From assembly GCF_030028105.1 (NCBI RefSeq), contig NC_092370.1:201172005-201236004 (forward strand): 64,000 bases of DNA. The letters are read 5' to 3'. Each line of letters opens with the position of its first letter. Position 1 is the stretch's first letter. This document shows positions 10,964 to 45,140 of this stretch, piece after piece. Position numbers and translations under genes: made by a program. Source of the stretch: Mobula birostris (taxonomy: Eukaryota). The notes under the pieces are model-generated. The model was given only the letters and a program-made list of their open reading frames with translations. It had not been told where the DNA came from and did not search any database.

Positions 10964-13721
10964 CCTGCGCCTAGCATCTCTTTATGTACACACAATCATT
11001 CTATAAATACATAAAATCTATCTCATGCATTGATATTTATTGTGATGTACTATCATTATTATTATTATTATTGTGTTCTTTATCTTATTGTGTTTCTTCG
11101 TGCTGCATCAGATCTGGAGTGACAATCATTTCATTCTGTTCTGCACTTGTTACAGGAAATGGTATTAAGCAATCTTGGATCTTGAGTGTGTGGTGGTGGC
11201 AGGTACTCCCACGACATTTAAGAAGTTCCCAGACCAGCATTAGAAATGCCAAGGCATAGACAGGTACAGACCAAATGTCAGTCAATAAAAAAGGCATAGA
11301 TAGGTACTTGGTCAGCATGGGGATGGAAGGCTGAACTCCGTACGTGACTCTGATACTGTGATAAATTTGATAGAGGGACTGTATAATATTGCATTTTCTT
11401 GCAAACTGGTATAAAGAAATCTTCCCAATTGCAGCAAGCATTCCTGCACTAAAATAAAGGTGAAAGAAAAATATACTGATGTTCCTTCTACAGAAAAAGG
11501 TGGGAAATAGGGTAGATACAGGTCAAAGCTCCCTCTCACTGTCCCATCATGCACTCCCAGAAAAAATAGAAAAACTGGATCAGACACCAAATAGAGCTCC
11601 CCTTACAAAAAAAAAGAGAACTTCAAAAAAATCTGCTAGGGGATAAACAGCAGAAGAAATGCCCTCTTTTTTTTATTATTAACTTAAAACGTACAGTAGA
11701 TGGAAGTACAGCAGCTCACTCTGAATATTAAAGTGGCCTCTGCTCACTGCATTAACTCTGCTTCTATACTCTTTTTTTTCATCTTTATTTCTCTCTTACC
11801 TGTCTTGCAAATGAGGTCAACCAGAATGTTTTGAATTTCTATAGGTTGGCAAAATGCAGCTTAATCTAAAATGAATTCCTCTGACTGAATAATGGTCAGT
11901 AACTGTGTGGAAAATTGACTATTTCAGATGATTAAGTGCATCTTTGGCTGGAGCCATTAGGATTGGATCTAAATAGCTGGTCAACCATATGATTTCCTGA
12001 CTCTGGGCAAGTGAGCCTGCTGGAAATGCCAGCATTGTTCCGGTTGTCTGCCTCTGATAAGCCCACGTGGGTCAAGCAAATCTTTCTCCAGCACCATGAT
12101 GACAGATGCTTGAGATCAGTTTGGGAAGCAGGTAAGTGAAGGACAAGGAGAACACAAAGCATTCACTAAAACGAAGAAATATGGCAGAAACTAGGAAAAG
12201 ATCTGGAATATTTTGATCCCAAAACTGCTGCAAGTTTTTAATCAGAAAAAATTACCTCTATTGACAGATAACTAAGGCCATTAATTTCTAAACATCACAG
12301 AAAGTTATGAAATATTTTTCCTGTGAACAGAATCTATCATAGCCTCTACAATGGAAGAGGATAAAGAGATTCAGAATAGGCATAATTAATCACATATAAT
12401 TCTACATTCTAGCATTCTATAACTGAGTAACCGAGGTTCCAAGTCAAATGATACATGAGCAAGTCCACTGACGAGACAGCTACAACTGGGAGGCAAGGAG
12501 TTTTGATGGATTCAAACTTATTAAATGAGGTGGATTTTGCTCAACTATGATTTAAAGCATTACAGAGACAATTATTTCACCAAGGTTAATGGGCGAAAGT
12601 TATAGATGAATTATGCATAAGTATGCAAGCTGATAGCAGATCTGGAGATAAATCATTCAGATGAGACTAATGAAAGGAGCTGCCAACTTTAAGATGATCG
12701 TGGGGGAAATGGATGTAAGTCCATCGTTGACGTGCACAAAATCCAAACATTGACTTTGCATTTATTTAATTCTGCCAGTAACAGTAACATGTTAAGTGTA
12801 GATACACAGTTAAATGTTTCAACAGAGTTATTGAATTTTTTTGGCAGAATCATTGGAATACCATATGCTTTCCATCCCTTTGTAAAGTATTTGGGCTCTG
12901 TCATCATCTTGTCATTGTAATAGTCCTATAAGATTGGTGGCTCACATCTGGCTAGTTCATAATGTATGTTGTCAATTTAGAAATTTCATATAATTGATGT
13001 AAAAAGATATGGGACTGCAGTGAAAGATCTACAGATAACTGAAACAAAAGTATAGAACAATATGGGGTCGATCTAAAGTTCCAGATTTAACTTGCAATAG
13101 AACACATACTGCTGGCAGAATGTTGTTTCTGAAAGACTTTAATATTTTCCAGATTTAGAGGAAAATGCAACCAAAATGACTGCCCCACTCTGCAGGATGA
13201 TGGCAAGAAAACTGTGGTAACAGCACTTGATGAAACAATTTGTCCATCACTTCCAGAATGTAATCAGTAGTTAGGAAGTATGATTATAGGTATGTACACT
13301 CTAAAGGCACAAATGAATATGAAATTCATTGGAAAGACCAATAGAATAGTGAAAATCGTGTTTGTCACTAAATGTATTTTCACTACATTTCAGTACATGC
13401 TATTTTCATTTAGAGATTAAAATAACATGGGAATATAGAAAAAAAGGTTGAGAAATGTGTAGAAATGTGGAGATATTTTAAACTGAGCTGTAGAAAAAAT
13501 GATTAACTTGCACAGATAGAACTCATTTGGTGAACTTACTACCCCATGATGCAATGTGTTCAGCAGAACAACCCTAGAAGGGATCCCAACTTCATATTTC
13601 AGTTTGTTCTCAGTAAAAAATATCAGAGAGGGGGTAGGTGAAGTTGTTGCTGTTGGGACAGTTAAAATTAGTTAAGTACCTACTATCATCAGTTGCTAGT
13701 CATCTTTATTTGATCCTCCTC

Positions 13722-14110
13722 TGTTACGTTACATCACAAGGTTCACGGACCACCTTGGTAATGCAGAAAGACACAATCTCCTTTTACCTACTTATAACTA
13801 CAAAACTTTGTTATGGCAGAATAGCAAATATTAAAACATTTACCTAAGTGTGAGTGGGCCCTCTCACTAAAGCACACCTCCCACTCAATCCTTGGTGCAG
13901 TCCGCAACCAGCCCATCAGTGCGGCCTCGAAAATCTGCTTCCAACCACTCTACCCATTCCACTGATATGAAATGCTGCAGTGTGCTCCCATACAATAGCA
14001 CCGGCTGAAACCACTGAACCAGGTGTGTTGGATTCTCACGGCCCCAGTCACACACACTCAAGGCCACAGTGGTGAAGGTATTCGACAAGCACAAAGATTA
14101 GCCCTTTACA
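13722..14110 (-). repeat. ERV 3' LTR
   Basis: Colinear with 18110-18598 (agaatagcaaa.attaaaacattta; caaccagcccatcagtg; ccctttaca); on the minus strand preceded by PPT-like caaagggtgga. Confidence 0.8.
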
Positions 14111-14189
14111 ATAGATTCCACCCTTTGAACGTTGCAACCCCGCTACATCTGCCCCAGAGGCTTTAATGCATCCCTCATGGATGCCCCAC

Positions 14190-14844
14190 TTTATTACAAC
14201 CAAAATGCAAAATTGCTAAACATAAAAGCAAAATGTCTACAGGAGCACCCCAGTGCACAACGGTAGCCCACTAGCCTCCAGGCATTCCAAAAAGGCCACC
14301 AACTCCCTCTCAGGGTGTAATATTCTACATTACACATCTTATCCACTGACCGTTGGATATGGTCAGCCAAATTTGTTATATTCGCTGATTCATCAGGGAT
14401 GTACATACAATGCTCCTGGCCCTATTATGGCACAGGTACCCAGGATATAATCCAATGCCATTGTATTCTCTCTGAGGCCATTAAGATGATCTCCCTATAT
14501 AACAAGGCAATACCATATGGGGGGAAAAGACAACATCCAATTTGTGGGTTGGGTGGTCGACTAGATCATCAATGTGATACCCATAGAGCACAGGAAACCA
14601 GGTAGCAGCAGCAAGACCAACCCGTGGGGAGCCAAAGTTAAGGACCAGAGCCGCACACCCAGAGCGTGCCATTCAATGTGGGAAACAAACGTGTCTCAAA
14701 GCAGTATGTTCTCACAGTAGTAGTGTCACACTGCTTTGTACCATTAAGGTGCATAAAGGTACAAGAGCTACTTCCCATCAGAACCAGCCCTTCATAATGA
14801 CAATCGCAATTATTCCTGGATTGCAGTAGTACATTCAACGTTGG
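14190..14844 (-). pseudogene. env: Retroviral env remnant (SU C-terminus and gamma-type TM)
   Basis: FPTLNGTLWVCGSG.LWLPTGWSCCCYL; ENTMALDYILGTCAIIG / EHCMYIPDESANITNLADHI (ISD and degenerate CX6CC, with a frameshift). Confidence 0.75.
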
Positions 14845-15467
14845 TACATAGAACATAGAAATCTATAGCACATTACATTGTGCCGACCATGTAACCTACT
14901 CTAGAAGCTACCTAGAATTTCCCTGCTGCAGAGCCCTCTATTTTTCTAAGCTCCATGTACCTATCTAAGAATCTCTTAAAAGGCTCTATTGTACCTGCCT
15001 CTACCACCGTCACTGGCAGTGCATTCCACACACCCACCACTCTCTGTGTGAAAAACTTACCTCTGACATCCCCCTTGTACTTACTTCTATGCACCTTAAA
15101 ACTTTGCCCCCTTGTGTTAACCATTCAGCCCTGGGAAAAAGCCTCTGGCTATCCACTCGATCAATGCATCTCATCATCTTATACACCTCCATCAGGTCAC
15201 CTCTCATCCTCCATCACTCCATGGAGAAAAGGCCAAGTTCACTCAACCTATCCTCATAAGACATGCTCTACAATCCAGGCAATATCCTTGTAAATCTCCT
15301 CTGCACTGTAAAGTATCCACATCCTTCCTCTAGAGAGGTGACCAGAACTCCAGTGCTCCAAATGGGGTCTAACTAAGGTCTTGTATAGCTGTAAAATTAC
15401 TTGAACTCAGTCCCACAGTTGATGAAGGCTAACACACCATACGCCTTCTTAACAACACTGTCAACAC
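14845..15467 (-). mobile_element. CR1 LINE 3' fragment inserted in the ERV
   Basis: MRGDLMEVYKMMR; FFTQRVVGVWNALP; tail catagaacatagaa; TSD cgttgg at 14839-14844 and 15468-15473. Confidence 0.9.
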
Positions 15468-15539
15468 CGTTGGCACTGGTCTTCGTCTGTTCAGATGCCA
15501 GTACATACCATTCCTAAAACAAGCTCATGGTGGATTTAT

Positions 15540-16330
15540 TCCGTGCCCTGCAACTCTCAAGCTATAAGGCCATGGCACAAGTTTGGGTTGTGCACATATC
15601 CCTGGGGAAGATGACAAAAGGTATACTGTCTCCTTTCCCATGTAAAGGCAAACTGGTCTTGTGACTAGGGACTCAAGGGAATAGAAAAGAAAACATTGGC
15701 CAAATCTACTACAAAGTACCAATGTTTCCCTTCCCTACCTCCTATGTCCTGTGCAATGGTCACTGCACCTAGGACAGCTGCTGTGAGGGGCGGGCGTGCT
15801 TATTCAACTGCCTAAAGTCTATCGTCACTCACCAGGTTCCATCCCCCTGCCGCACTGGCCACATGGGACTAATATAGGGGAACATTGCCAGCTGAATAAA
15901 CTTCCCCCCCTCCTTCAACGTGTTTCTCCGATCTCCTTGATGCCACCTGGGATGGGGTACTGCCTGATGTTCAGGACCTTGGTCAAGAGGCAGGTTGTGA
16001 GAGGCTCCCACTTGGCCAGTCCCACCAGCACTGTCACTCCAGCCACCCCAAAAGTAAACTCTGCAGAACAAAAAATTGTTTTGCAGGGACCTATCTTTCA
16101 GCACATTCATAGGCAAAATACAATCGGGAATGCCACAACCAGCCCAGACATAGGTCCTGGTTGTTCTGATAGCTGCCCTTACTGTAACTATCCAGGCTGA
16201 AATGAGTAACCCTCCCAGCCCTTCTATCATCACCTGGGGCTCTGGGATAATCGTGTGTTCAGCCTCATTATCAATGTGCCAACCGTCATTGTGCATTTCC
16301 CCTTCCAGTGGACCACAATAGATACGTAAG
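15540..16330 (-). pseudogene. pol: ERV pro-pol remnant (protease and RT N-terminal half)
   Basis: IDNEAEHTIIP (degenerate DTGA); SPMWPVRQGDGTW*VTIDFRQLNK; WYFVVDLANVF / FSIPLSP*SQDQFAFTWERRQYTFCHLPQG / YVHNPNLCHGL, matching remembered ERV-L/S RT motifs. Confidence 0.85.
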
Positions 16331-16399
16331 GCCTCAGGCCTCCCGGCTAAGAAAGAGTCACTGAATATATACACTAGGAGCCCTGGCCATACTCCCATA

Positions 16400-17450
16400 G
16401 GAGCAGAGTGCCAGGTGTTGGGGAGCTATCTGCAATGCCTCAAGGGAGGTGTATCAGGAGTTGGAGATCAGCACAGGTCTCCTTCTCTCCTGCAGCTCCT
16501 CTCCCTTCCTATTTTAACAATAAAGCACACAAAGCAGTAGCAGGTATCCCGTCCTTCCGTTCCTTCACGATGCCTGTCTTGAGCAGAGCTAAAAGCATCT
16601 CCATACCAGTCAGGTGGTAGCACCCCCCCCCCCACTTCTTTATCTTTTTTTTGTCTTCCTCACCTGGCTACAAGCCCTGCTTACATGTACCAACCTCTCC
16701 AAGAGTCCGGTAGCCAAACCTACTGTCCTCCCTTCCACCGGCCCTGAAAGGGGCAGCATCTTTCCCTTCAAATGGAGGGCTGCCATTTTTACCAGGTACC
16801 CTACCATGGTCAGGGAGAACTTCTGATCCTCCAGCGGGTCATCCCCACCCCCATAAGCCCCAGTGATCAGGGCCCACTGACGAAGAGCCTCAGTCCCCTC
16901 CTCCACTGTGTTCCACAGTTCTTGACAGTCTAAATCCCAGTCTAACAGGGAGGGATGCTTACCCTTTACTGCAGCTGCTACTCTCTACCACAAAGATTTA
17001 TACTCTCTGACCATTCCCCCATAGGATATTGCTTGCCCCATGGTTTGATGGCAATCCTCCCAGGGCACCCATTTCTCAGTTGGATAAGATCATTCCACCT
17101 CCGCTCACGGCTCGTATCCTTAACAAGTACTCTGCTAATGGTTCCTGCAATTACTGTCTGATCCGATCCTCCAACTCCATCAATTCCTTGGAGGAGTAGT
17201 TCTTAGTCAACCACTGCGGTGGCCACCATTTCGGATCTCCACTCTTGCACTTTCCCTAGCTGGATGACACATTGGCCCGGTGTATCAGGCTGCCCCACAG
17301 GATGACAGGGGCTTGGAGAGGGAGGTTGGTCAGGCCCGGTTTCTGTGGACATAATAACCCTAGTTAGTTGTGTTCTTAAGGACTTGGGGGGCAGAGGAAG
17401 GAAAGTGACTTTCCACCCTATAATCCCAATCCTCACCATCAAACTAAATA
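16400..17450 (-). pseudogene. gag: ERV gag remnant, class III type
   Basis: RQ*LQEPLAEYLLRIRAVSGGGMILSN*EMGALG and C-terminal MLLALLKTGIVKERKDGIPATALCALL resemble ERV-L/S Gag motifs; no zinc knuckle seen. Confidence 0.65.
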
Positions 17451-18080
17451 TCTGCATCCTTGAGTATCTAGGTCATCGCCCCATAAAATAAGAGCTCAGA
17501 TCTTCACTGGGTCCAATTGCTAATTGGCCCTTCGACCTATTTCCTGCTTCTGGATCTTGGTCAGGTAACAGGTGATATCGATACTCTTTTTCTCCATCTC
17601 TTTAATGCAGATCTGTGGTCATGCTGCACTGATTCAATCTCCCCACCTTGTGTTCAAGAATCTCTATCTCCTCCTCTTTCCAAGAGATTGGTTTATGATG
17701 GATGCCAGCAGCCCTCTCTGGCTGCCCTTCTTGTCCAGGCACCTTAACCCCTTTAGTATGGATATGAGATGGTGTCCCATCTTTACCCTTGTATGTCCAG
17801 CTTGTCTGTCCAGTCCACTAGCACACCATGTTCTGCGAGCAAACTGGCCAGGCTGCCAAACCCATGGTTTGATGGCAATCCTCACACAGCTCCCAATTCC
17901 CAGTCGGATAAGATCACTCCACCTTCTCCCAGAGCTCATATCCTTAACAAGCTCTCTGTTAATGGCTCCCAGTTATCAGTCCACCCTGGTACTTGGTATT
18001 CTTCACCAAGGGGGTCTTCCTTCTTACTCTTACTCCTAAACATTTTTTGCAAGCATATTTGCTTTCTCTCACACCTGCCA

Positions 18081-18101
18081 GATCCTTAGCCGACAAAGCC
18101 A
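18081..18101 (-). promoter_or_regulatory. Degenerate tRNA-Ser primer binding site
   Basis: Minus strand tggctttgtcggctaaggatc versus tRNA-Ser complement tggcgtagtcggcaggattc, a few nt downstream of the 5' LTR. Confidence 0.6.
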
Positions 18102-18109
18102 AAATATTA

Positions 18110-18598
18110 TGTTACACCAAAATGTTCACAGAATGGCTCAGTAAGGCGGAAAGATACAAACTCCAATTATCTACTCAGAGCTACAAAACGTTGCTTATTA
18201 GGACAGAATAGCAAACATTAAAACATTTATCCAGGTGTGCATATGCTCTTGTCACTGTAGCATACCTCCCACTTGATCCACAGTGCCATTCACAACCAGC
18301 CCATCAGTGAGGCCTTGACAACCTACCGTCGACCACTCTACTTTTATACCCATTCCACTAATATGAAATGCTTCAGAAGCGGGCCAGTACATTAGTACCA
18401 ACTCAAACCACCAAACCATAACCAACCATCACTTGTCACCACAACTCACTAATCCTGCCCCTGTGTTCACCTGATTTTCATGTTCTAGTGGTTGTATTCC
18501 CACAGTAGTATTGAATTCTCATGGTGTAACACATTCTCACGTACGCTCAAGGCCATAGCGATGAAGACATTCACCAAGCACAAAGGTGAACCCTTTAC
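18110..18598 (-). repeat. ERV 5' LTR
   Basis: Minus strand begins TGTAAAGGG and ends GTAACA; homologous to 13722-14110 with ~100 extra bp. Confidence 0.8.
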
Positions 18599-19464
18599 AA
18601 TACACCCTTATGCATCAAGATTGGGGAAGGATTGAGCGTGACTGTTAGGCAGCATTCCAAAATTCACCACTTGTAGGGCAACTAACACTGGGAAGTTTGA
18701 TGAGGTATCTGAAAGCCACTGTGCCTGTGAAACGTTGCCTGCCCAGTATCAGTGTTTCTTGAAAAGAAAGAGGAGAAATATGTTGTGCAAGAAGGGACCA
18801 GAAATATTAGTTTCTAGTTACTTCGGAAACCAATTAGACCTTTTCAACTTGCCTTTACCCATGTCACTGTTTTACCTTCTGTAATCACTCTTTCAGTCAC
18901 CATACTCTAATCTGAAGCTTTCTCCCTGAATCTCATACTTTCTAACTTCAAAACCTTCCAAAGTACTCTCTTGCACTATGTTTTTGACCTCATCCTTTTC
19001 TTATTTATCTTCTCTTCCCAGCTGTTTGTAAAGTACCTTTGCCAAGGAGTTCACCCAAGTCAACTATATGTGCTATATAATAATATAGACTCTGAGATTT
19101 TCCTTCATCATTAGCTGTTACTATTCATTATCACTGAATAGGGGTAATAATCTGGGCATTTCAGTCTACCTAAGGGCCATAAAAATATAAATACATTTAT
19201 TCATTTGAAGTACTAGCAAAACCCACCTGGCAATGTTCATTGTCACAATGTGCACTGCCAAGTGCGGTGGAAAGACAGACTCCCCATGTAGAGACAGCAG
19301 AGTTAATACATAAGAATTCCAACAGAGCATCGGTTGCTCGACCAGGCGACACCAACGAGACAAATATCCTCCAAACTAGGACACAGCGATAAACCCTAAG
19401 GAATGACCACTTAATTAGAACAGGTGACCCAGAAACCCCAAGCTAACAAGGTTAAACAATTAAT

Positions 19465-19600
19465 GACAAACAAGATAAAATCTGCAGATGCTGGAAATCC
19501 AAGCAACACACACAAAATGCAGGAGGAACTCAGCAGGCCAGACAGCATCTATGGAAAAGAATACAGTCGACGTTTCGGGCCGAGACCTTTCATCATGATT
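19465..19600 (-). mobile_element. Penelope-like terminal fragment with mutated hammerhead
   Basis: tctgcagatgctggaaatccaagcaacacac...gtcgacgtttcgggccgagacc; core reads atgatga instead of ctgatga. Confidence 0.75.
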
Positions 19601-21624
19601 TTCAAGAGGATGATCTAACAGAGGAAAGTCACAGTGGTCAGGTCTGTGATACTGAATCTGACTCTGTGATTCAGAAAGGAAGGGGGTAGAAGAGGTATGC
19701 TGTGGTGATTAGTTAGGAATCAAAAGGTTGAGCATGGTGCAACTTGTGTCCTGGGCTGTCTATATTTAAATGCAAGAAGTAACATAGGAAAAGAGGATAA
19801 TAGTACTGAAGATGGGGTAGCAGGTTTACATACAGAAGCAATTTGTAGTGAGGGGAGGCTGTAGATAGGGCAAAATTGCAGTCAACAGGATGAGTTGCAA
19901 TGTGAAAGGCAGACAACATCGAAAAGAGTGAATACAGGGCTGAAGGTGTTGTATCTGAATACGTGCAGTACGCAGAATAAGGTTGATGAAATTGTAGCAC
20001 AGTTGCAGATTGGCAGGTATGATGTTGTAGGCATAACTGAACCATGGCTGAAAGATTATAACTCGGAGTTTAATGTCCAAGGATACACATTGTGTCAAAA
20101 GAATAGGCAGGAAGGCAGAGGGTGCGGCATTGCTCTGTTGGTAAAAGTTGAAATCAAATCATTCGAAAGAGGTGACATACAGTCCGAAGATGTTGAATCA
20201 TTGTGAATAGAGCTAAGGAACTGTAAAGGTAAAAAGACACTGATGGGAGTTGTATACAGACCCCCAAACAGTACTAAGGACGTGTCCTAAAATTTACAAC
20301 AGGAGATAGAAATGCATGCCAAAAGGGCAATGTTACAATCGTCATGGGGGACTTCAATATGCAGATAAATTGGTAAAATCAGGTTGGTGTTGAATTACAG
20401 GAGGGGGAATTTCTAGAGGGCTTACATGATGACTTTCAGAGCAGCTCGTGGCCGAGCCTACTAGCGAATCAGCTATTCTGGATTAGGTGATGTGCAATGA
20501 ACCGGAATTGATTAGAGTCCTTAAGATAAAAGAACCCTTAGGGGAAAGTGATCATAATATGATTGAATTCACCCTGAAATTTGAGAAGGAGAAGCTAAAG
20601 TCAGATCATAGTCATACTTTATTGATCCCGGGGGAAATTGGTTTTCGTTACAGTTGCACCATAAATAATAAATAGTAATAAAACCATAAATAGTTAAATA
20701 GTAATATGTAAATTATGCCAGGAAATAAGTCCAGGACCAGCCTATTGGCTCAGGGTGTCTGACCCTCCAAGGGAGGAGTCGTAAAGTTTGATGGCCACAG
20801 GCAGGAATGACTTCCTATGGCGCTCTGTGTTGCATCTCGGTGGAATGAGTCTCTGGCTGAATGTACTCCTGTGCCCACCCAATACATTATGTAGCGGATG
20901 GGAGACATTGTCCAAGATGGCATGCAACTTGGACAGCATCCTCTTTTCAGACACCACCGTCAGAGAGTCCAGTTCCATCCCCACAACATCACTGGCCTTA
21001 CGAATGAGTTTGTTGATTCTGTTCGTGTCTGTTACCCTCAGCCTGCTGCCCCAGCACACAACAGCAAACATGATAGCACTGGCCACCACAGATGTATTAG
21101 TATTACAGTGGAGTAAAGGGAATTATGGAAGCATGAGAGAGGAGATGGCCAGAATTGATTGGAAAAGAACACTGGCAGGGATGATGGCAGAGAAGCAATG
21201 GCTGGAATTTCTGGAAGCAATTCAGAAGTCACAAGATATATACATCCCAAAGAGGAAGAAGTATTCTAAAGGCAAAATGAAACAACTGAGGCTAATAAGA
21301 GAAGTCAAATCCAACATAAAATCCAAAGAGAGGGCATATAATAGAGCAAATCCTGGTGGGAATTTCAAGGATTGGGAAGCTTTTAAAAACCAACAGAAGG
21401 CAACTAAAAAAGTCATTGAAAAGGTAAAGATGTAATATGAAAATAAGCTAGCCAATAATATTAAAGAAGAGAGCAAAAGTTTCTTCAGATACACAAAATG
21501 TAAAAGAGAGGCAAGAGTGGATATTGGACTTCTAGAAAACAATGCTGAAAGATAATAATGGGGGACAACAAAATGGCGGACGAACTGAATAAGTATTTTG
21601 TATCATTCTACACTGTGGAAGACA
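19600..21624 (+). mobile_element. CR1 LINE 5' part (APE endonuclease region), interrupted
   Basis: LKVLYLNTCSTQNKVDE, YDVVGITEPWL, VMGDFN, EPLGESDHNMIEF. Confidence 0.85.
20607..21088 (-). mobile_element. Young Rex1-type LINE 3' fragment inserted in CR1
   Basis: Open C-terminus ...ILDNVSHPLHN...TERHRKSFLPVAIKLYD; cagat duplicated at 20602-20606 and 21089-21093. Confidence 0.85.
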
Positions 21625-24600
21625 GGTGACGTAGGTATGTGTTGGGGAGCACTTCGGATCCAGTGATCACAATGCCATTAGTTTCAATATAATTATGGAG
21701 AAGGATAGGACTGGACCCAGGTTTGAGATTTTTGATTGGAGAAAGGCTAACTTTGAGGAGATGAGAAAGGATTTAGAAGGAGTGGATTTGTTTTATGGGA
21801 AGGATGTAATAGAGAAATGGAGCTCATTTAAAGGTGAAATTTTGAGGGTACAGAATCCTTATGTTCCTGTTAGGTTGAAAGGAAAGGTTAAAAGTTTGAG
21901 AGAGCCATGGTTTTCAAGGAATATTGGAAACTTGGTTCAGAAAAAGAGAGAGATCTACAATAAATATAGGGAGCTTGGAGTAAATGAGGTGCTCGAGGAA
22001 TATAAAGAATGTAAAAAGAATCCTAAGAGAGAAATTAGAAAAGCTAAAAGAAGATATGAGGTTGCTTTGGCAAGTAAGGTGAAAATAAATCCAAAGGGTT
22101 TCTACAGTTATATTAATAGCAAAAGGATAGTGAGGGATAACATTGGTCCCTTAGAGAATCAGAGCGGATGGCTATGTGCGGAGCCAAAAGAAATGGGGGA
22201 GATTTTGAACAATTTCTTTTCTTCGGTTCACTAAGGAGAAGGATATTGAATTGTGTTGTCATAAGGAGGTGGCTGGGAACGGACCCAAGTGTAAGACACA
22301 GACACTAAAGTACTAGGGACAGGACTAAGATACAGGCTGAGGGCAAGGACATGGACACGAAAACCAGGAACCCGGAACAGGACTGGACAAGAGATCTAGG
22401 AGCCCGGGCTTGGACTCCGAGCCAGACACTGGACAAGGACCCACTACCTGGGTCTTGCCTCTGGCTCGGACCCCAGAACTAGGCAAGGACGATGCTTGGC
22501 AGGCAGGCAGGACGAGGCTGGAGTCTTAGAGACTTGAGACGAGGCTTGGCAGGAGGCAGGAGACTTGAGGCAAGGCTTGGCAGGAGGCAGGATACTTGAG
22601 TCTTCAGGCTTGAGGCTAGGCAGGAGGCTGGAGTCTTCAGGCTTGAGGCTAGGCAGGCTCCTCTTGGGCAGGGTGTGGTTCTCCTGGGCAGGGCGCGGAT
22701 CACCACCCAACAGAGGCATGGGACAGGAAGGGACAGGACCAACCGCAGGTAATGGCAAGACGGCCTGACTTACCCGACAGAGGCAAGGGACAGGAAGGGA
22801 CAGAACCAACCGCAGGTAACGGCAAGACGGCCTGGCTTACCTGGGCGGAGGCAAGGGACAGGAAGGGAGCTAGTTACAGGGTGGCTCCAGGACAAGACTA
22901 CAGGCGAGACGAGGCAAGAGTTACCAGCAAGACAAGGCAAGGCTTCAGGCAATGCAAGGCGAGACGAGAACTTCAGGTGAGGCAAAAGTTACTGGCAAAG
23001 GCAAGGCTTCAGGCAATGCAAGGCGAGACGAGAACTTCAGGTGAGGCAAAAGTTACAGGCAAAGGCAAGGCAAAGGCAAGGCAAAGGCAAGGCAAAGGCA
23101 AGGAAACAGAAGGCAGGGAAAGGGATACAAGGAGTAAGGACAAGAACAATCCAGCAGCCACACCCTGGTCTCTGAAGGTATTTATACAGCCAGCCCCAAC
23201 GAGCATCAGCTGACTCAATTAGAGCTCAACAGGACCAGAAACAGGGTAGACAGGAAAACCTGGAGCAAGGGTCGATGGACCGGACCGTGAACCGGAATGT
23301 GGACTTCACGGACCGGACCATGTCATGTGTAAGGTAAGGGAAACAAGTAAGGTAGTTATGGAAACTATGATGATTAAAGAAGAGGAAGTACTGGCGCTTT
23401 TAAAGAATATAAAAGTGGATAAGTCTCCAGGTCCTGACAGGATACTCCCTAGGACCTTCAGGGAAGTTAGTGTGGAAATGGCAGGGGCTCTGACAGAAAT
23501 ATTTCAAATGTCATTAGAAACAGGAATGGTACTGGAGGACTGGCATATTGCTCATGTTGTTCCATTGTTTAAAAAGGGTTCTAAGAGTAAACCTAGCAAT
23601 TATCGGCCTGTGAGTTTGATGTCAGTGGTGGGTAAATTGATGGAAAGTATTCTTAGAGATGGTATATATAATTATCTGGATAGACAGGGTCTGATTAGGA
23701 ACAGTCAACATGGATTTGTGCGTGAAAGGTCATGTTTGGCAAATCTTATTGAATTTTTTTGAAGAGGTTACCAGGAAAGTTGACGAGGGTAAAGCGGTGG
23801 ATGTTGTCTATGTGGACATCAGTAAGGCCTTTGACAAGGTTCCACACGGAAGATCAGTTAGGAAAGTTCAATCGTTAGGTATTAATATTGAAGTAGTAAA
23901 ATAGATTCAGCAGTGGCTGGATGGGAGACGCCAGAGAGTAGTGGTGGATAAGTGCTTGTCAGATTGGAGGCCGGTGACTAGTGGTGTGCCTCAGGGATCT
24001 GTACTGGGTCCAATGTTGTTTGTCATATATATTAATGATCTGGATGATGGGGTGGTAAATTCGATTAGTAAGTATGCAGATGATACTAAGATAGGTGGAA
24101 TTGTGGATAATGAAGTAGGTTTTCAAAGCTTGCAGAGAGATTTAGGCCAGTTAGAAGCGTGGGCTGAAAGATGGCAGATAGAGTTTAATGCTGATAAATG
24201 TGAGGTGCTACATTTTGGTAGGACTAATCAAAATAGGACATACATGGTAAATGGTAGGGCATTGAAGAATGCAGTTGAACAGAGGGATCTAGGAATAATG
24301 GTGCATAGTTCCCTGAAGGTGGAATCTCGTGTGGATAGAGTGGTGAAGAAAGCTTTTGGTATGCTGGCCTTTAGAAATCAGAGCATTGAGTATAGGAGTT
24401 GGGATGTAATGTTGAAATTGTACAAGGCATTGGTAAGGCCAAATTTGGAGTATTGTGTACAGTTCTGGTCACCGAATTGTAGGAAAGATGTCAACAAAAT
24501 TGAGAGAGTACAGAGAAGATTTACTGGAATGTTACCTGGGTTTCATCTCTTAAGTTACAAAGAAAGTTTGAACAAGTTGGGTCTTTATTCTTTGGAGCGC

Positions 24601-24990
24601 AGAAGGTTGAGGGAGGACTTGATAGAGATATTTAAAATTATGAGGGGGATAGATAGAGTTGACGTGGATAGGCTTTTTCCATTGAGAGTAGGGGAGATTC
24701 AAACAAGAGGACATGAGTTGAGAGTTAAAGGGCAAAAGTTTAGGGGTAACATGAGGGGGAACTTCTTTACTCAGAGAGTGGTAGCTGTGTGGAACGAGCT
24801 TCCAGCAGAAGTGGTTGAGGCAGGTTCAATGTTGTTGTTTAAATTTAAATTGGATAGATATATGGACAGGAAAGGAATGGAGGGTTATGGGCTGAGTGCA
24901 GGTCGGTGGGACTAGGTGAGCGTAAGAGTTCGGCACAGACTAGAAGGGTCAAGATGGCCTGTTTCTGTGCTGTAATTGTTATATGGTTAT
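21625..24990 (+). mobile_element. Relatively young CR1 LINE, 5'-truncated ORF2 with RT
   Basis: KSPGPD, NYRPVSL, SQHGF, SKAFDKVPH, SGVPQGSVLGP, SKYADDTK; 324-aa open stretch 23941-24915; few frameshifts. Confidence 0.95.
22257..23325 (-). mobile_element. Solo-LTR-like insertion (Ty3/Gypsy-type) with internal tandem repeats
   Basis: TG...CA ends; 5-bp TSD tgtgt at 22252-22256 and 23326-23330; TATA-like TGTATAAATACC on minus strand at 23177-23188. Confidence 0.8.
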
Positions 24991-26150
24991 ACTGGATGCT
25001 CTCTACTGTACAACTGTAGAATGATGTGAGTATGGATGTGCCCAGTCCAGCTCTCTTCAACCTCCTCAGGAAGTAGAGGCATTGGTGAGCTTTCCTGACT
25101 GTGAAGGATGTGTTCTGGGACCATGAAAGGTTGTGTATGATGTGCACTCCCACTCCACTGCTGTACCATCGATGTAAAGCAGGTGTGAGTGGCGCGAGCT
25201 CTCCTGAAGTCAATAACCATTTCCCTTCTCATGTTGAAATTAAGCAAAAGGTTATTTATATGGCACCAGGCCTCGAGCTCTTCCATCTCTTCAATGTATG
25301 CTGTCTCATCATTGATGGTGATGAGCCCCACCACCGTCGTGACATCAGTGAACCCCACTATGTGATTACTTGGGCATTTGGCCGTGCAGTCATGTGTGAG
25401 CAGAGAGTACAGCAGTGGGCTCAGCACACACCCTGAGGGTACCCGTGTTGAGGATGATGGGGAGGGAGGAGTGTTTGCACAACCTGACTATCTTAGATTC
25501 AAGGTCCAAAATTGTTCACAATATTCTGAATGTGTCTGACCATTTCAGCCTCCCCAGAAAGTAGAGGCGTTGATAAGCTTTCTTGACTGTGTAGGATGTT
25601 GTCTGGGACTATGAGACATTGCGTATGATGGGCACTCAGGAGTTTGAAACTTCTTGCTGCTGTGCCACCGATGTAAAGCGTAGTGTGAGTGGTGCAAGTT
25701 GATGACCGTCTCCATTGTCTTGTTGACATTAAGGAAGGGGTTGGCACCAAGGTGCGAGCTCTTTCCCCTCCTCTCTATAGGCCATCTGATCATTGCTGGT
25801 GATGAGACCCACCAATGTCAAACCTGAAGATGAGGTTGCTCAGGTGTCTGTCTGTGCAGTCACGTGTGAGCGGACTACTCAGCAATGACAGGCTCAGCAC
25901 ATGGCCCTGGGGGGCAACCGTGTTGAGGACGATGGGGGAGGGAGGAATGGTTGAAAATCCTGACAATCTGAGGTCGGTTTGTTGGGAAGTCTAACACCCA
26001 GTTGCACAGTGGTTCTTTTAGACTGAGGAGTAGGAATTTGTTTACCAGGTCTGTGGGACAACAGTACTGAATGCTGAAATGAAATCCAGAAACAGCAGTC
26101 TGACATAAGTGACCTTGTTTTCCAGGTGTGTCAGGGCCAGGTGCATGACA
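24991..26150 (-). mobile_element. Two adjacent Rex1/Babar RT fragments covering overlapping regions
   Basis: [13 protein letters not shown]...FTDVTT (24987-25500) and a second, more decayed copy (25545-26150). Confidence 0.8.
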
Positions 26151-28614: not shown

Positions 28615-30182
28615 TAGAAACATAGAAAACCTATAGCACAATACAGGCCCTTCAGCCCACAATGCTGTGCCGAACATGTACTTACTTTAGAAATTACCTA
28701 GGGTTACCCACAGCCGTCTATTTTTCTAAGCTCTACGTACCTCTCCAGGAACCTCTTAAAAGACCCTATCATATGTGCCTCCACCACCGTTGCCGGGAGA
28801 CCATTCCACGCTCTCACCACTCTCTGCATAAAAAAACTTACCCCTGACGTTTCCTCTGTACCTGCTTCCAAGCACCTTAAAACTGTGCCTTCTCGTGCTA
28901 GCCATTTTAGCCCTGGGAAAGAGCCTCTGACTATCCACACAATTAATGCCTCTCATCATCTTATACACCTCTATCAGGTCACCTCTCATCCTCCGTCGCT
29001 CCAAGGAGAAAAGGCCAAGTTCCCACAACCTATTCTCATAAGGCATGCTCCCCAATCCGGGCAACATCCTTGGAAATCCCCCCTGCGCCCTTTCTATAGT
29101 TTCCACATCCTTCCTGTAGTGAGGTAGCCAGAACTGACCACAGTACTCCAAGTGGGGTCTGACCAGGGTCCTATATAGCTGTAACATTACCTCACAGCTC
29201 TTGAACTCAATCCAGCAGTTGATGAAGTCCAATACACCATTCGCCTTCTTAACCACACAGACAATCTGCACAGCAGCTTTGAGTGTCCTAAGAACTCAGA
29301 CCCCAAGATCCCTCTGATCCTCCACACTGCCAAGAGTCTTACCATTAATACTATATTCTGCCATCATATTTGACCTACCAAAGTGAACCACTTCACACTT
29401 ATCTGGGTTAAACTCCACCTGCCACTTCTCAGCCCAGTTTTGCATCCTATCAATGTCCCGCTGTAACCTCTGACAGCCCTCCACACTATCCACAATACCC
29501 CCAACCTTTGTGTCATCAGCAAATTTACTAACCCATCCCTCCACTTCCTCATGCAGGTCATTTATAAAAATCACGAAGAGAAGGGGTCCCAGAACAGATC
29601 CCTGAGGTACACCACTGGTCACCAACCTCCATGCAGGATCTGACCTGTCAACAACCACTGTGGGCAAGTCAATTCTGGATCCACAAAGCAAAGTCCCCAT
29701 GGATCCCATACTTCCTTACTTTCTCAATAAGCCTTGCATGGGGTACCTTATCAAATGCCTTACTGAAATCTATATACACTACATCTACAGCTCTACCTTC
29801 ATCAATGTGTGTAGCCACATCCTCCAAAACTTCAATCAGGCTCGCAAGGCACGACCTGCCTTTGACAAAGCCATGCTGACTATTCCTATTCATATTATGC
29901 CTCTCAAAATGTTTATAAATCCTGTCTCTCAGGATCTTCTCCATCAACTTGCTCACCACTGAAGTAAGTCTCACTGGTCTATAATTTCCTGGGCTATCTC
30001 TACTCCCTTTCTTGAATAAGGGAACAACATCTGCAACCCTCTAATCCTCTGGAACCTCTCCCATCCCCATTGATGATGCAAAGATCATTGCCAGAGGCTC
30101 AGCAATCTCTTCCTTCACCTCCCACAGTTGCCTGGGGTACATCTCATCCAGTCCCGGTGACTTATCCAACTTGATGCTTTCT
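28615..30182 (-). mobile_element. CR1 LINE RT/3' fragment
   Basis: SGVPQGSVLGPLLFVIFINDL, KFADDTK, DFSKAFDKVPH, KSPGLD; tail tagaaacatagaaa. Confidence 0.95.
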
Positions 30183-30210: not shown

Positions 30211-30579
30211 NNNNNNNNNNNNNNNNNNNNNNNNNNNNNNNNNNNNNNNNNNNNNNNNNNNNNNNNNNNNNNNNNNNNNNNNNNNNNNNNNNNNNNNNNN
30301 NNNNNNNNNNNNNNNNNNNNNNNNNNNNNNNNNNNNNNNNNNNNNNNNNNNNNNNNNNNNNNNNNNNNNNNNNNNNNNNNNNNNNNNNNNNNNNNNNNNN
30401 NNNNNNNNNNNNNNNNNNNNNNNNNNNNNNNNNNNNNNNNNNNNNNNNNNNNNNNNNNNNNNNNNNNNNNNNNNNNNNNNNNNNNNNNNNNNNNNNNNNN
30501 NNNNNNNNNNNNNNNNNNNNNNNNNNNNNNNNNNNNNNNNNNNNNNNNNNNNNNNNNNNNNNNNNNNNNNNNNNNNNNN
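30211..30579. other. Assembly gap (369 N)
   Basis: Run of N. Confidence 1.
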
Positions 30580-36089: not shown

Positions 36090-39000
36090 TTGTAGGAGAG
36101 TCCAAGAACAGAGATCACAACCTCAGAGTAAAAGGATGTCCCTTTAGAGCAGAAATTTCTAAAATTTCTTTAACCAGAGGTGGTAAAACTGTGGAATTCC
36201 TTGCCAAAGATGACTGTGGGGGCCAGGTCCTTAGGGATATTTAAAGTGAATTACCAGGTTACCAGAATGGCTGATGACGGAAAGGCAGTGGATATTCTCT
36301 GCATTGATTTTAGCAAGGCCTTCAACATGGTCCCGCGTCGGAGATGTGTCATAAAGGGTCAGATGCTTGGCCCTCAGGATGAGGAAGTAAATTGCATTCA
36401 ACATTTGCTTTATGAGGGAAGCCAGAGAGTGATAATAGATGGTTGCCTCTCTGACTGGAGGCCTATAACTAGTGGTGTGCCACAGGGATCAATGCTGGGT
36501 CCAGTGTTGCTTGTCATCTATATTGATGATCCAGATGATAGAGCTATTCCAGAGGGGTTAATCTAATTTAGAAGGGAGATGGGAACTGGAGTGAAAGTGC
36601 TGAGGATGAGGTAGTTGGTTTTACAAACAAAGGCAGTGTGTAGTAAGACAGGCTGATGAAAGGGCAAAATTGCAGTCAACAGGATGAATTGCAATGTAAA
36701 AGGCAGACAAAATCGAAAAGGATGAATACAGGACTGAATGTGCACAGAATAGGGAATAAGGTAGATGAACGCAGAACAGTTACAGATTGGCATGTATGAC
36801 ACTGTGGGCATCACTGAATCGTGGCTGAAAGAAGATTATAACTGGGAGCTTAACGTCCAAGAATAAACACTGTATTGAAAGGACAAGTAGGTAGGCAGAG
36901 GGGTTTGTGTGGCTCTGATGATAAAAATCGAAATCAAATTAGAAAGAGGTGACATAGGGTCAGAAGATATTGAATCATTGTGGGTAGAGATAATGAACTG
37001 CAAGGTTAGACGATGGAAGTTATATACAGACCCCAAACAGTAGTAAAGAAGTTGTCTACAAATTACAATGAAATTACAATGGGAGAAGGAAAACACATGT
37101 CGAAAAGGCAATGTTAAGATAGTCATGGGCAATTTCAATATGCAGGTAGATTGGGAAAATCATATTGATGCTGGATCCCAAGAGGAGAAATTTTTAGAAT
37201 GACTGTGAGATGGCTTTATAGCACAGCTTATGGTTGAGCCCATTAGGGGATCAGCTATTCTGGATTGGGCATTGTACGAAAAAAAACAGAATTGATGAGA
37301 GAGCTTGAGATAAAGAAACCCTTAGGGGATAGTAATCATGGTATGAAAGAATTCACCATGGAATTTGAGAAGAAGAGGCTAAAGTCAGATGTGGCGGTAA
37401 GAAGATTATAGCTGGGAGCTTAACATCCAAGAATAAACATTGTGTCGAATGTGATGTAACAGGGATGTGATGTTGAGGCTCTATAAGGCACTCATGAGAC
37501 CACACTCGGAGTATTGTGTGTAGTTTTGGGCTCCTTATTTTAGAAAGGATATACTGACATTGGAGAGGGTTCGGAGAAGATTCACAAGAATGATTCCAGG
37601 AGTGAAAGGGTTACCGTATGAGGAACGTCTGGCAGCTTTTGGGCTGTATTCCCTGGAGATCAGGAGGTTGAGGAAGGATCTTATAGAAACATTCCAAATA
37701 TTAAAAGGCCTGAACAGATTAGACATAGCAAAGTTATTTCCCATGGTAGTGGATTCTAGGACAAGAAGGCATGACTTCAAAATTGAAAGACGTCCATTTA
37801 GAACTGAGATGCGAAGAAATTACTTTAGTCAGAGGGTGGTAAATCTGTGGAATTTGTTGCCATGAGCGTCTGTGGAGGCCAAGTCATTGGGTGTATTTAA
37901 GGCAGAGATAGATAGGTTCTTGATTAGCCAGGGCATCAAAGTATATGGGGTGAAGGCAGGGGAGTGGGGATGACTGGAAGAATTGGATCAGCCCATGATT
38001 GAATGGTGAAGCAAATTCGATGGGCCAAATGGCCAACTTCTGCTCCTATATTTTAAGGTCTTATGTATCAATATTACAGTGGAGTAAAGGGAATTACAGA
38101 GGCATGAGAGAGCAGCTGGCCAAAGTTGATTGAAAGGGTGGCTAATGGTGTTTCAAAGGGGTCTGTGTTGGGACTGCTTCTTTTGACGTTATATGGCAAT
38201 GACTTGGATGACAATGGCTATGTGGCTGAGTTTACAGATGATCTGAAGACAGGTGGAGGGGCAGGTAGTTTTCAGGAAGTAGGGAGGTTACAGAAGGACT
38301 TAGATATATTCAGAGAATGGGCAAAGAAGTGGCAGATGGAATAGAGTGTCCAGAAGAGTATAGTTGTGCACTTTGTTAGAATAAATAAAAATATAGACAA
38401 TTTTCTAAATAGAGAGAAAATTCAAATGTCAAAGGAGCAAAGGGACTTGGGAGTCCTCATGCAGGATCCCCTAAAGATTATTTTGCAGAATGAGTCTGTG
38501 GGGAGAATGGCAAATGCAATATTAGCATTCATTTCAAGAGGACTAGAATGTACAAACAAGGAATTAATGTTGAGGCTTCATAAAGCAGTGATGAGGCCTC
38601 ACTTGGAGTATTGTGAGCAGTTTTGGGCCCCCTACCTAAGGAAGGATGTGCTGACATTGGAGGGATTTAAAGGACTTTCACAAGAATGATTTCAGGATTG
38701 AAAGGCTTGTCATATGAGGAGCATTTGATGGCTCTGGGCCTCTTCTCTCTGGAATTCATTGGAATGAGGGTGACTTCATTGAACCTTATTGAATGTTGAA
38801 AGGCCTCGATAGAGTGGATGTAGAGAGGATGCCTCCTATTGTGGATAAGTCTAAGACAAAAGGACACATCCTTTTAGAACAGAGATGAGGAGGAATTTCT
38901 TCAGCCGGAGAGTGGTGCATCTGTGGAATTCACTACCGCAGACGGCAGTGGAGGCCAAGTTTTTATGTATATTTAAAGCAGAGTTTGATAGATTCATGAT

Positions 39001-40225
39001 TGGTCAGGGCATGAAGGGATGAGGGGAGAAGGCAGGAGATTGGGGCTGAGAGCAAAAATGGATGAGCAATGAGAGCAGACTCGATGGGCCAAATGGTCTA
39101 CTTCTGCTCCTATATCTTATGGTCTATTCAGTGTGCAATCAATAAAAAGAAGTGGAGGATGATGATAGATGTCTGTGTACAAACGTAGTTCTGGTCATCA
39201 CACTATAAAGAAGATGTGGTAGAGAACCCTACAGGATCACTTCACTCCAGGGAAGAGAGTCCCAGCCTATCCAGCCTCTGCTCATAACCCAAATCTGCCA
39301 GTACCAACAACGTCCCTGTAAATCTTTTTTGCACCCTTACTAGCCTGACACCGATTGGGGCATAGTAGACAGCGAGGAAGTCTATCAAAGCTTGCAACAG
39401 GATCAGGACCAGCTGGAAAAATGGGCTGAAAAGTGGCAGATGGAACTTAATGCAGATAAATACGAAGTGTTGCACTTTGGGAAGACCTACATGGTGCGCA
39501 ATATAGGGCACTGAGGAATGTGGTAGAACAGAGGAATCTGTGAATACAGATCCATAATTCCTTAAAAGTGGTGTCACAGGTTGTAAGGAGAGCTTTTGGC
39601 ACATTGGCCATATAACAAAGTATTGAATACAGGAGTTGGGTATGTTATGTTGACATTGTACAAAACATTGGTGAGGCCTAAGTTGGCATATTGTGTGCAG
39701 TTCTGGTCACTAACATACAGGAAAGATATCAATAAGATTTAAAGAATGCCGAGAAGAGTTACAAGGATGTTGCTGGCTCTTGAGGACCTCAGTGAAAGGC
39801 CAAATAGGTGAAGTCTTTACTCCCTCGAGCATAGGGGAATGAAGTGAGAATTGATAGAGGTATATAAAATTATGAGAGGTATCGATGGGACAAATGCAAT
39901 CAAGATTTTTCTACTGAGGTTTTGTGAGACTAGAACTGGAGGTCACTTATTAAGTGTGAAAGATGATATGTTTAAGGGGAATATGTGGGGGGACTTCTTC
40001 ACTCAGAAGGTGGTGAGAATGGGGAACAAGCTGCCAGCAGGAATGGTGAATCTGGGTTTGATTTCAACATTTAAGAGATGTTTGGAATAGCACTTTAATG
40101 GGATGGGAATGGAGGGTTATGGTCCAGATGCAGGTCAATGGGATGAAGCAGAATAATAGTTCAGTAAGGAACGGATGGACTGAGGGGCTTGGTTCTGTGC
40201 TGCATTTATCTGTGTCTCTATGACT
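36090..40225 (+). mobile_element. Cluster of CR1 LINE fragments (APE region 36560-37392; 3' fragments 37450-38062, 38140-39125, 39355-40225; short minus piece ~39190-39350)
   Basis: DFSKAF, SGVPQGS, RPHLEYCEQFWAPYLRKD, FSQRVVNLWN motifs and several CR1 tails. Confidence 0.85.
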
Positions 40226-44500: not shown

Positions 44501-45140
44501 CTGTCCTGTCTACGCACAGCTGTGATATTTTCCCTGACTAGTAATGCCACTCCTCCCCCTTTTTATCCCTCCCCCCTCTATCATGTCTGAAACAACGGAA
44601 CCCTGGAACACTAAGCTGCCAGTCCTGCCCTTCCTGCAACCAAGTCTCATTAATAGCAATAATGTCATAATCCCTTGTGCCAATCCACGCCCTAAGCTCA
44701 TCTGCCTTACCTACAATACTCCTTGCATTGATATAGATGCACCTGAGAACATTTCTATCACATACAAACCTTTGATTTCTGTCTTCATGTACAGTCCTCG
44801 CATGACCTTTATCCTCCTCCACCTCACTATCTGCTCTAACACTCTGGTTCCCCTCCCCCAGCAAATCTAGTTTAAACTCCCCGAAGCAGCACTAGCTAAC
44901 CTACCTGCAAGGATGTTAGTCCCTCTCCAGTCCAGGTGCAAACCCTCCCATCAGAACAGGTCCCACCTTCCCTGAAAGAAAGTCCAACTGTCCAGAAACA
45001 TAAAGCCCTCCCTCCTGATTTGCAGGCATCTGAAATATAATTGGTTTGCACAGTGTTTTAAATTCAAATTCAATCTGAAGATCGTTTGCTGATGAAATTA
45101 ATATTTGGTGGATAGCCTAACTACAGAATACACCCTCACA
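41596..45140 (-). mobile_element. Solo LTR (pieces 41596-41884 and 45018-45140) interrupted by CR1
   Basis: TGTGA...TCACA terminal inverted ends; 4-bp TSD ccct at 41592-41595 and 45141-45144; AATAAAA on minus strand ~41650. Confidence 0.7.
41885..45017 (-). mobile_element. CR1 LINE with near-complete but frameshifted ORF2 (APE plus RT)
   Basis: YINARSIVGKADEL, INETWL, VGDFNFPHIDW, GSSDHN, KSPGSD, SKFADDTK, FFTERVVGVWNELP. Confidence 0.95.

What the first reader, a model, noticed from the sequence alone, without database searches (positions are those of the whole stretch)
13722..18598. Ancient class III (ERV-S/L-like) provirus in an apparent cartilaginous-fish genome
Seen: LTR-PBS-gag-pro-RT-env-PPT-LTR order on the minus strand. 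The RT motifs are SPMWPV..DGTW.VTIDFRQLN, DLANVF..P and QFAFTW..RQYTF..LPQG, and the PBS resembles tRNA-Ser. The two LTRs are strongly diverged (by eye roughly one mismatch in four or five, plus a ~100-bp indel). Known: these motifs and a Ser primer characterise HERV-S/ERV-L-type retroviruses, which are best described in tetrapods. Inference: an old, possibly undescribed class III lineage in elasmobranchs that bears on the aquatic origin of this group.
Basis: partly seen in the sequence, partly recalled or inferred. Interest (0 to 1): 0.7.

Follow-up and report, generated by a model that had tools for sequence, protein, structure and literature searches.

The report
Ancient ERV-S-like provirus shared among rays
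This is a dead, partly deleted class III retrovirus in a manta/devil ray genome, likely a relative of human HERV-S, that sits at the same spot in the DNA of eight other, likely related, species; the virus group was already known from sharks, so its main value is as a likely very old insertion that can be dated.

Summary
The provirus is real: minus strand, 18604-13722, LTR-PBS(Ser)-gag-pro-half RT-env remnant-PPT-LTR. The LTRs differ at 23% of sites (K2P 0.28) plus a ~100-bp indel. The host is a Mobula ray (RAG2). The RT nests in class III (99/99) with stingray and electric-ray elements, beside amphibian elements; grouping with class I, Gypsy or loki-like RTs is rejected (AU p<0.004). A Ser primer, gamma-type env, 5-bp target duplication in a sister copy and no dUTPase match the HERV-S pattern. 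The lineage is not new: a whale-shark ERV with a visibly homologous Gag is listed beside HERV-L/S in Xu 2018, and class III is the main ERV class in cartilaginous fish. New here: contigs from 8 of 8 other organisms laid (2-7% diverged) bridge an LTR-flank junction, and the LTR distance is 3-4 times the deepest of these splits. It may exceed 150 My, but this is uncalibrated.

The parts
18105..18604 (-). 5' LTR, 500 bp, starts TGT; its end reads TA where the 3' LTR has ACA
   Evidence: bridged to host flank in 4 of 4 runs
18082..18101 (-). Primer-binding site, tRNA-Ser(AGA) type, 16 of 18 matches plus a 2-nt insertion
   Evidence: host tRNA-Ser(AGA) genes; alignment; sister lineage L066 matches 18 of 18
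17861..17969 (-). 109-bp extra copy of gag segment 17037-17145 (83% identical), placed near the gag 5' end
   Evidence: absent in L059, L060, L062; bridged in 2 of 4 runs
16400..18030 (-). gag remnant, broken by stops and frameshifts; boundaries approximate
   Evidence: tblastn with Hemitrygon Gag-Pol P0028, E 5e-17
15950..16330 (-). protease region; the catalytic DTG word is not intact in the window
   Evidence: P0028 residues 563-741 match 16290-15787; Pfam RVP on P0028; translation
15548..15950 (-). N-terminal half of reverse transcriptase, ending before YxDD at a deletion junction
   Evidence: trees
15477..15548 (-). env SU fragment joined directly to RT; roughly 2-3 kb of pol and env is missing here
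   Evidence: matches env loci L080, L081, L084, L086; RT-to-env span 2.3 kb in L063 and 2.9 kb in L062
14848..15476 (-). Secondary insertion: 3' fragment of a CR1-type LINE with a short microsatellite tail
   Evidence: env is continuous across the site in L081 and L086; longer homologues run into LINE RT motifs FADD/PQG; depth about 1e6; the label CR1 is recalled
14150..14847 (-). env C-terminal remnant of gamma type: end of SU, ISD-like MALDY, degraded CX6CC region, membrane-spanning part; frameshifted, with a ~40-bp loss at 14527-14540 that other species lack
   Evidence: L062 copy has CX6CC, Pfam TLV_coat E 5e-4 (below cut-off) and syncytin-1 as best PDB match, E 9e-7
14116..14126 (-). Polypurine tract
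   Evidence: sequence; similar tracts before 3' LTRs in L034, L036, L038, L059
13722..14115 (-). 3' LTR, 394 bp, ends ACA; lacks about 100 bp present in the 5' LTR
   Evidence: bridged to host flank in 3 of 4 runs listed and 4 of 4

Best explanation
It is a dead, internally deleted class III endogenous retrovirus, likely of the ERV-L/ERV-S group and built like HERV-S (serine primer, gamma-type envelope, no dUTPase found in its family), that integrated in an ancestor shared by a Mobula ray and at least eight other sampled, likely related, species and has likely decayed neutrally since. The parent virus would have primed reverse transcription with tRNA-Ser, made a 5-bp target duplication, and entered cells with a covalently linked SU-TM envelope (inferred from family copies). 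It spread in one old wave of many near-identical copies, since all LTRs sampled are about equally distant. This copy lost the second half of pol and the start of env, took a LINE insertion in env, and encodes nothing today.
For: Shown: structure and LTR distance. Host RAG2 is 100% identical to a protein named Mobula birostris, 84% to skate and electric ray, 75-82% to sharks. The RT fragment falls in a 5-row ray clade (98/96), inside an 8-row batoid clade with Hemitrygon and Narcine proteins (94/87), sister to amphibian elements, two of them with dUTPase (91/89), within a 20-row clade (99/99) that also holds bird, turtle and bichir elements (31 rows). AU tests reject union with class I (p 0.004), Gypsy (0.002) and loki-like rows (0.0008). 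Family copies carry HYIDD and CX6CC. No dUTPase match in 51 sequences searched or genome-wide. L059 has a 5-of-5 target duplication with LTR K2P 0.25. Contigs bridge an LTR-flank junction in 8 of 8 runs laid, each a different organism label, K 0.020-0.071. HERV-S features from PMC4724089 passages; XtERV-S features from PMC8278194.
Against: No named HERV-S, MuERV-L, XtERV-S, SnRV or foamy sequence could be put in the tree. The class III and ERV-S/L labels rest on motifs, on database names (ENS-3-like), on dUTPase-bearing neighbours and on a by-eye match to Rh_ty_ERV3. The window RT fills only 46% of the columns and has a long branch (0.62). The target duplication here is 3 of 5. The two LTRs are no closer to each other (0.28) than to LTRs at other loci (0.235-0.44), so a single integration is not proved. 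The genome-wide dUTPase search also missed the host's own spliced gene, so it is a weak negative. Neutral decay was not tested by dN/dS.
Confidence: 0.87

Rival explanations
1. The element is a recombinant of two separate proviruses of the same family, so the LTR distance overstates or does not reflect the age of this locus.
For: Target duplication only 3 of 5, also 3 of 5 with the flank base seen in 3 of 4 runs; the LTR pair is not closer than cross-locus pairs; ~100-bp indel; large internal deletion.
Against: With 23% divergence, two or more mismatches in five are expected about a third of the time (my arithmetic). L059 has a perfect duplication and a similar K of 0.25. All LTRs being equidistant fits one old burst. 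Both junctions are bridged within single runs (X5, X10, X12).
Confidence: 0.15
2. It is class III but of the snakehead-retrovirus type, or a separate deep branch, and not of the ERV-L/S group.
For: Published elasmobranch class III elements include SnRV-like ones (PMC4422223; bioRxiv 2021.11.23.469661); no SnRV reference was in my tree.
Against: Gag resembles Rh_ty_ERV3, listed with HERV-L/S, and not Rh_ty_ERV2, which is listed beside SnRV and has a Cys-His box. P0028 Gag has no Cys-His box. Turtle ERVs listed in the HERV-S part of that tree share the RT motifs. Neighbours carry dUTPase after integrase.
Confidence: 0.07
3. Part of the element, an LTR or the env remnant, was kept by the host as a regulatory or coding sequence, which would explain retention in many species.
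For: Present in 8 of 8 runs laid; a highly conserved host stretch lies about 600 bp beyond the 3' LTR.
Against: All genes are broken. Orthologue divergence inside the element (4.6-6.8% in C-J) is no lower than in the nearby flank and far above that conserved stretch (about 1%). Indels differ among species.
Confidence: 0.04
4. It is a Ty3/Gypsy retrotransposon, a lokiretrovirus, or an epsilon/gamma retrovirus.
For: DFRQLN-type motifs also occur in Gypsy; the env is gamma-type.
Against: AU tests reject all three groupings; class III ERVs commonly carry class I envelopes (PMC4724089).
Confidence: 0.01

Closest known systems
Rh_ty_ERV3, whale shark (Xu et al. 2018, PMC6001957, S2 Data and S2 Fig)
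   Same: Elasmobranch class III element listed beside HERV-L, MuERV-L and HERV-S. Gag blocks match this Gag by eye in order and spacing, for example EMFAALLKAGI..KIDGIP against EMLLALLKTGI..RKDGIP.
   Different: Shark host, published as a consensus; the comparison is by eye on the Gag part shown; its RT, LTR, PBS and env were cut from view; no orthology or age was seen in what I read.
HERV-S (HERV18), supergroup HSERVIII (PMC4724089)
   Same: Class III pol, class I-type env, no dUTPase, no Gag zinc finger; serine primer (recalled from the family name).
XtERV-S of Xenopus (PMC8278194)
   Same: Ser(AGA/TGA) PBS, TGT..ACA LTR ends, 5-bp target duplication, YIDD, TM with ISD and CX6CC, no Cys-His box.
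   Different: XtERV-S has a dUTPase after integrase, 705-bp LTRs and is recent; this family shows no dUTPase, has ~500-bp LTRs and is old.
Unnamed RefSeq-predicted Gag-Pol proteins of Hemitrygon akajei (P0028, P0100) and Narcine bancroftii (P0042)
   Same: Same batoid RT clade; P0028 aligns along gag, pro and RT of the window.
   Different: Annotated only as uncharacterized proteins; different subfamilies, 49-57% identical over the RT piece.
Orthologous ERV-L of placental mammals, minimum age 104-110 My (PMC3758187, abstract)
   Same: Old class III insertion shared across species and carrying secondary repeat insertions.
   Different: That age is calibrated by named hosts; this one is not.

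Membership tests
Class III ERV (clade Huo) | RT groups apart from class I, loki-like and Gypsy RTs, with ERV-L-like elements | tested here: met
   clade 99/99; AU p 0.004, 0.002, 0.0008; references are database proteins, not named prototypes
Class III ERV (clade Huo) | YIDD catalytic motif | tested here: met
   deleted in the window; HYIDD in close copies L002, L020, L021 and in P0028, P0042, P0100
Class III ERV (clade Huo) | LTR ends TGT..ACA and 5-bp target duplication | tested here: met
   ends; L059 5 of 5, L040 4 of 5, L042 2 of 5; the window itself 3 of 5 and so inconclusive alone
Class III ERV (clade Huo) | Gag without Cys-His box | tested here: met
   none in P0028 or in the L066 Gag frame; the window Gag is too broken to test alone
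ERV-S type (HERV-S, XtERV-S) | Serine tRNA primer | tested here: met
   16 of 18 to host tRNA-Ser(AGA); 18 of 18 in L066
ERV-S type (HERV-S, XtERV-S) | Gamma-type env with ISD and CX6CC | tested here: met
   ISD-like word in the window; CX6CC in L062, L083, L084
ERV-S type (HERV-S, XtERV-S) | RT sister to named HERV-S or XtERV-S | not testable with these tools
   named references not obtained; only indirect support
ERV-L proper | dUTPase after integrase, no env | tested here: not met
   no dUTPase hit; env present in 126 of 150 scored candidates; the leucine primer of ERV-L (recalled) is also not met
SnRV-like ERVs | RT clusters with snakehead retrovirus | tested here: inconclusive
   no SnRV sequence in the tree; Gag unlike Rh_ty_ERV2 by eye
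Lokiretrovirus | Basal RT and paramyxovirus-like env | tested here: not met
   AU p 0.0008 against P0166/P0199 (the loki-like label is mine, from position and a recalled motif); env is gamma-type
Ty3/Gypsy | RT groups with Gypsy | tested here: not met
   AU p 0.002
Dfam/Repbase catalogued family | Match to a library consensus | not testable with these tools
   no repeat library on hand

The most novel reading that the evidence does not exclude
This locus is one of the oldest individually datable retroviral integrations: an ERV-S-type provirus with both LTRs, fixed before the main ray groups split (over 150 My, perhaps 200-300 My). It would be older than the 104-110 My placental ERV-L orthologue and would mark a Mesozoic or earlier wave of an enveloped ERV-S-like virus whose descendants kept entering ray germ lines.
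Probability: 0.3. Interest if true: 0.6.

Novelty: new member of a known kind. Interest (0 to 1): 0.33.

Why it matters
As a virus type it adds little, since class III ERVs with gamma-type envelopes and shark members near ERV-L/S are published. As a marker it is useful. Published LTR distances for elephant-shark ERVs are 0.024-0.033 (PMC4422223), and orthologous ERVs in cartilaginous fish were reported within one genus without a date (bioRxiv 2021.11.23.469661); here the distance is 0.28 and the site is shared across nine organism labels. Once hosts are named, this locus and its many family copies give a hard minimum age for ERV-S-type viruses with gamma envelopes, a neutral-rate calibration for rays, and presence/absence markers for batoid phylogeny.

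Tried and rejected
Named retroviral references from IMG/VR: one search found none, one search found one class I-like virus (L071, used as a class I row), and one search had no usable motif. Pfam on whole frames gave only weak RVT_1; Pfam on nine window fragments of env, gag, pro and insert gave nothing (six and three fragments). Rfam and ARAGORN on the window gave nothing. The exact look-up of RAG2 and L071 proteins failed. The careful 76-row tree did not finish, so the quick tree is cited; a careful 31-row tree did finish. Trees left out RT pieces under 165 columns other than chosen genome copies, P0042 and P0041, extra cluster members and most Gypsy rows. No RNA holder was listed; this is no evidence on expression. 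No listed contig piece bridges the pol deletion junction, so it is not shown to be shared. The LINE 3' junction is bridged by the tool's 31-letter rule in 1 of 4 runs (X12); three others reach 27-28 letters into it. Family-specific short words were absent from the held part of the Xu 2018 supplements (file 7 is held cut). No ray substitution rate or usable divergence date was found. The rate assumed in Han 2015 (2.2e-10) gives 636 My, which is impossible and rejected. The first idea, that the LINE insertion caused the pol deletion, was rejected: about 70 bp of SU lies between them and env is continuous across the insertion site in L081 and L086. Earlier scan notes by place and by sequence returned nothing.
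Full report
Observation. The minus strand carries two LTRs, 18604-18105 and 14115-13722. They differ at 90 of 394 aligned sites (p 0.228, K2P 0.28 +- 0.03; p 0.204 outside CpG sites) and by a ~100-bp indel. A primer site follows the 5' LTR and a purine tract precedes the 3' LTR. G000 has 47 matches to a recalled tRNA-Ser 3'-end pattern; 6 of 6 loci checked are tRNA-Ser(AGA) genes, and the PBS pairs with that end at 16 of 18 positions with a 2-nt insertion.

A stingray Gag-Pol protein (P0028, found) aligns along gag, pro and RT. RT ends at about 15548, before YxDD. The next ~70 bp match env SU of four family loci, so RNase H, integrase and the env start are deleted; L062 and L063 keep 2.3-2.9 kb between these points. 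A LINE 3' fragment fills about 15476-14848; env is continuous across that site in L081 and L086, so insertion and deletion are separate events. A 109-bp gag segment is duplicated at 17969-17861 (83%) and is absent from L059, L060 and L062. Env has an ISD-like word in the window and CX6CC in three family copies; the L062 frame matches Pfam TLV_coat weakly and syncytin-1 best in PDB. Every gene has stops or frameshifts.

Host. RAG2 of G000 is 100% identical to a protein named Mobula birostris, 84% to skate and electric ray, 75-82% to sharks and at most 57% to bony vertebrates. The host is a devil or manta ray.

Family. In the 4.0-Gb genome the RT piece matched 150 of 150 scored candidates (1863 at first look), the TM piece 126 of 150 scored (872), and the LTR gave 46 matches from 40 scored candidates (204). 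These are lower bounds and include sister lineages. Fourteen LTR copies are mutually 0.235-0.445 apart, and the window's pair is no closer than cross-locus pairs, as expected from one old burst. L059 has both LTRs (K 0.25) and a perfect 5-bp target duplication; the window shows 3 of 5.

Placement. The window's RT fragment gave 27 hits among 107 candidates, the named ones all from birds, the top one called pol-like ENS-3. A longer natural frame from a sister lineage retrieved stingray, electric-ray, frog, caecilian, newt, turtle, bichir and mudskipper Pol proteins, several with dUTPase after integrase. Trees used unjoined single-frame pieces (181 rows FastTree; 76 rows quick; 31 rows careful). 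The window sits with old genome copies and a Hemitrygon protein (98/96), in a batoid clade (94/87), sister to amphibian elements (91/89), inside a clade of 20 rows (99/99). AU tests reject grouping with class I (p 0.004), Gypsy (0.002) or loki-like rows (0.0008). Named prototypes were not obtainable, and the fragment fills 46% of the columns. No dUTPase was found in the window or 50 loci or genome-wide (a weak negative).

Orthology and age. Twenty runs under 11 coded organism labels hold part of the stretch; I laid 8 runs from 8 labels other than the best holder. In one search, 4 of 4 have a contig across the 5' LTR-flank junction and 3 of 4 list one across the 3' junction. In one search, which covered only the 3' part, 4 of 4 bridge the 3' junction. 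Divergence from the window is K 0.020 (B), 0.048-0.066 (C, D, G, H, I, J) and 0.071 (F), from pieces I judged orthologous by length and likeness. The LTR distance is 3.3-3.9 times the deepest of these. Names are coded, so this is not calibrated: 0.28 gives 64 My at 2.2e-9, 140 My at 1e-9, 200 My at 7e-10 and 350 My at 4e-10 per site per year. If the 6-7% runs are other stingray-order families that split 50-90 My ago (dates recalled, identities assumed), the age would be about 170-350 My. More distant species would be missed by the word index, so the outer limit is open.

How it worked. Shown: structure, decay, shared insertion, class III RT. Inferred from family copies and from XtERV-S: tRNA-Ser priming, 5-bp target duplication, Gag without zinc finger, a covalent gamma-type envelope, and spread as an enveloped virus or by copying in the germ line. 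Nothing points to present function: divergence inside the element is not lower than in its flank, while a host stretch at 12800-13116 differs by about 1%.

Comparison with print. PMC6001957 (parts 1-2 of 5; S2 Fig as text; searches in a cut S2 Data file): clade Huo infects all vertebrate groups, an aquatic origin is proposed, whale-shark Rh_ty_ERV3 is listed next to HERV-L, MuERV-L and HERV-S, and its Gag resembles this Gag by eye. PMC11089739 (passages): most chondrichthyan ERV RTs are clade III. PMC8278194 (parts 1-3 of 8): XtERV-S features. PMC4724089 (passages): HERV-S has a class I env and no dUTPase. bioRxiv 2021.11.23.469661 (passages and part 3 of 6; supplements closed and may hold this family): gamma-type env ERVs in 6 cartilaginous fish, orthologues only within Chiloscyllium. 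PMC4422223 (part 1 of 2): elephant-shark LTR distances 0.024-0.033. PMC3758187 (abstract): placental ERV-L orthologue, 104-110 My. PMC10699275 (part 1 of 4 and passages), PMC8922424, PMC10587355, PMC12428016 and PMC12690878 (passages) added context only. Searches listed no paper on Mobula ERVs or on an orthologous ERV across ray families; the library lacks most subscription journals. Two earlier scan notes describe SnRV-like shark elements with a different envelope type; I did not check them.

Verdict. A real, old, dead provirus, correctly read as class III and ERV-S-like. It is a new member of a known kind: the lineage in elasmobranchs and the aquatic-origin argument are published, and my tree nests the ray clade among tetrapod elements. 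What remains of interest is the shared insertion with both LTRs, which may be among the oldest datable ERV loci (probability about 0.3). Interest 0.33.

Noticed in passing
window 12800-13116: Host stretch far more conserved across species (3 differences in 270 and 2 in 305 letters) than the element (5-7%); A+T-rich with TAAT/ATTA words, possibly a conserved non-coding element or exon.
   Followed up: no
L052 1224-6907; L066 1894-8111: Sister class III lineages with less diverged terminal repeats (83% over 193 bp, 90% over 188 bp) and serine-type PBS, so the group entered or spread in this genome more than once.
   Followed up: partly
G000:C6:35.58-36.26 Mb; also C17 and C24: Class III RT matches recur about every 24 kb on C6 and as near-identical sets on C17 and C24, which suggests tandem or segmental duplication of ERV-bearing units.
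   Followed up: no
L070 5220-6407: An epsilon-like (class I) ERV RT in the same genome.
   Followed up: partly
window 19450-19600: SINE-like repeat resembling the elasmobranch HE1 family (label recalled), high depth.
   Followed up: no
window 19802-22256, 23176-24992, 28615-30181, 37458-40221, 41884-45017, 52873-59349: Further repeat blocks, many LINE-like; 19865-20206 reads like a LINE endonuclease start, and 28666-29264 is a 79% copy of the insert in env.
   Followed up: partly
PBS of the window, L059, L060, L062: The window, L059 and L062 show a 2-nt insertion against the tRNA-Ser(AGA) end, at the same place; L060 has about one extra base. It may be a family trait or point to another Ser isoacceptor.
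   Followed up: partly
P0028 residues 439-499; L066 Gag frame: Weak Pfam DUF5535 match in the Gag C-terminal part (E 0.004 and 0.07), which suggests this unnamed family is a class III Gag piece.
   Followed up: no
window 30211-30579: 369-base run of N, outside the element.
   Followed up: no
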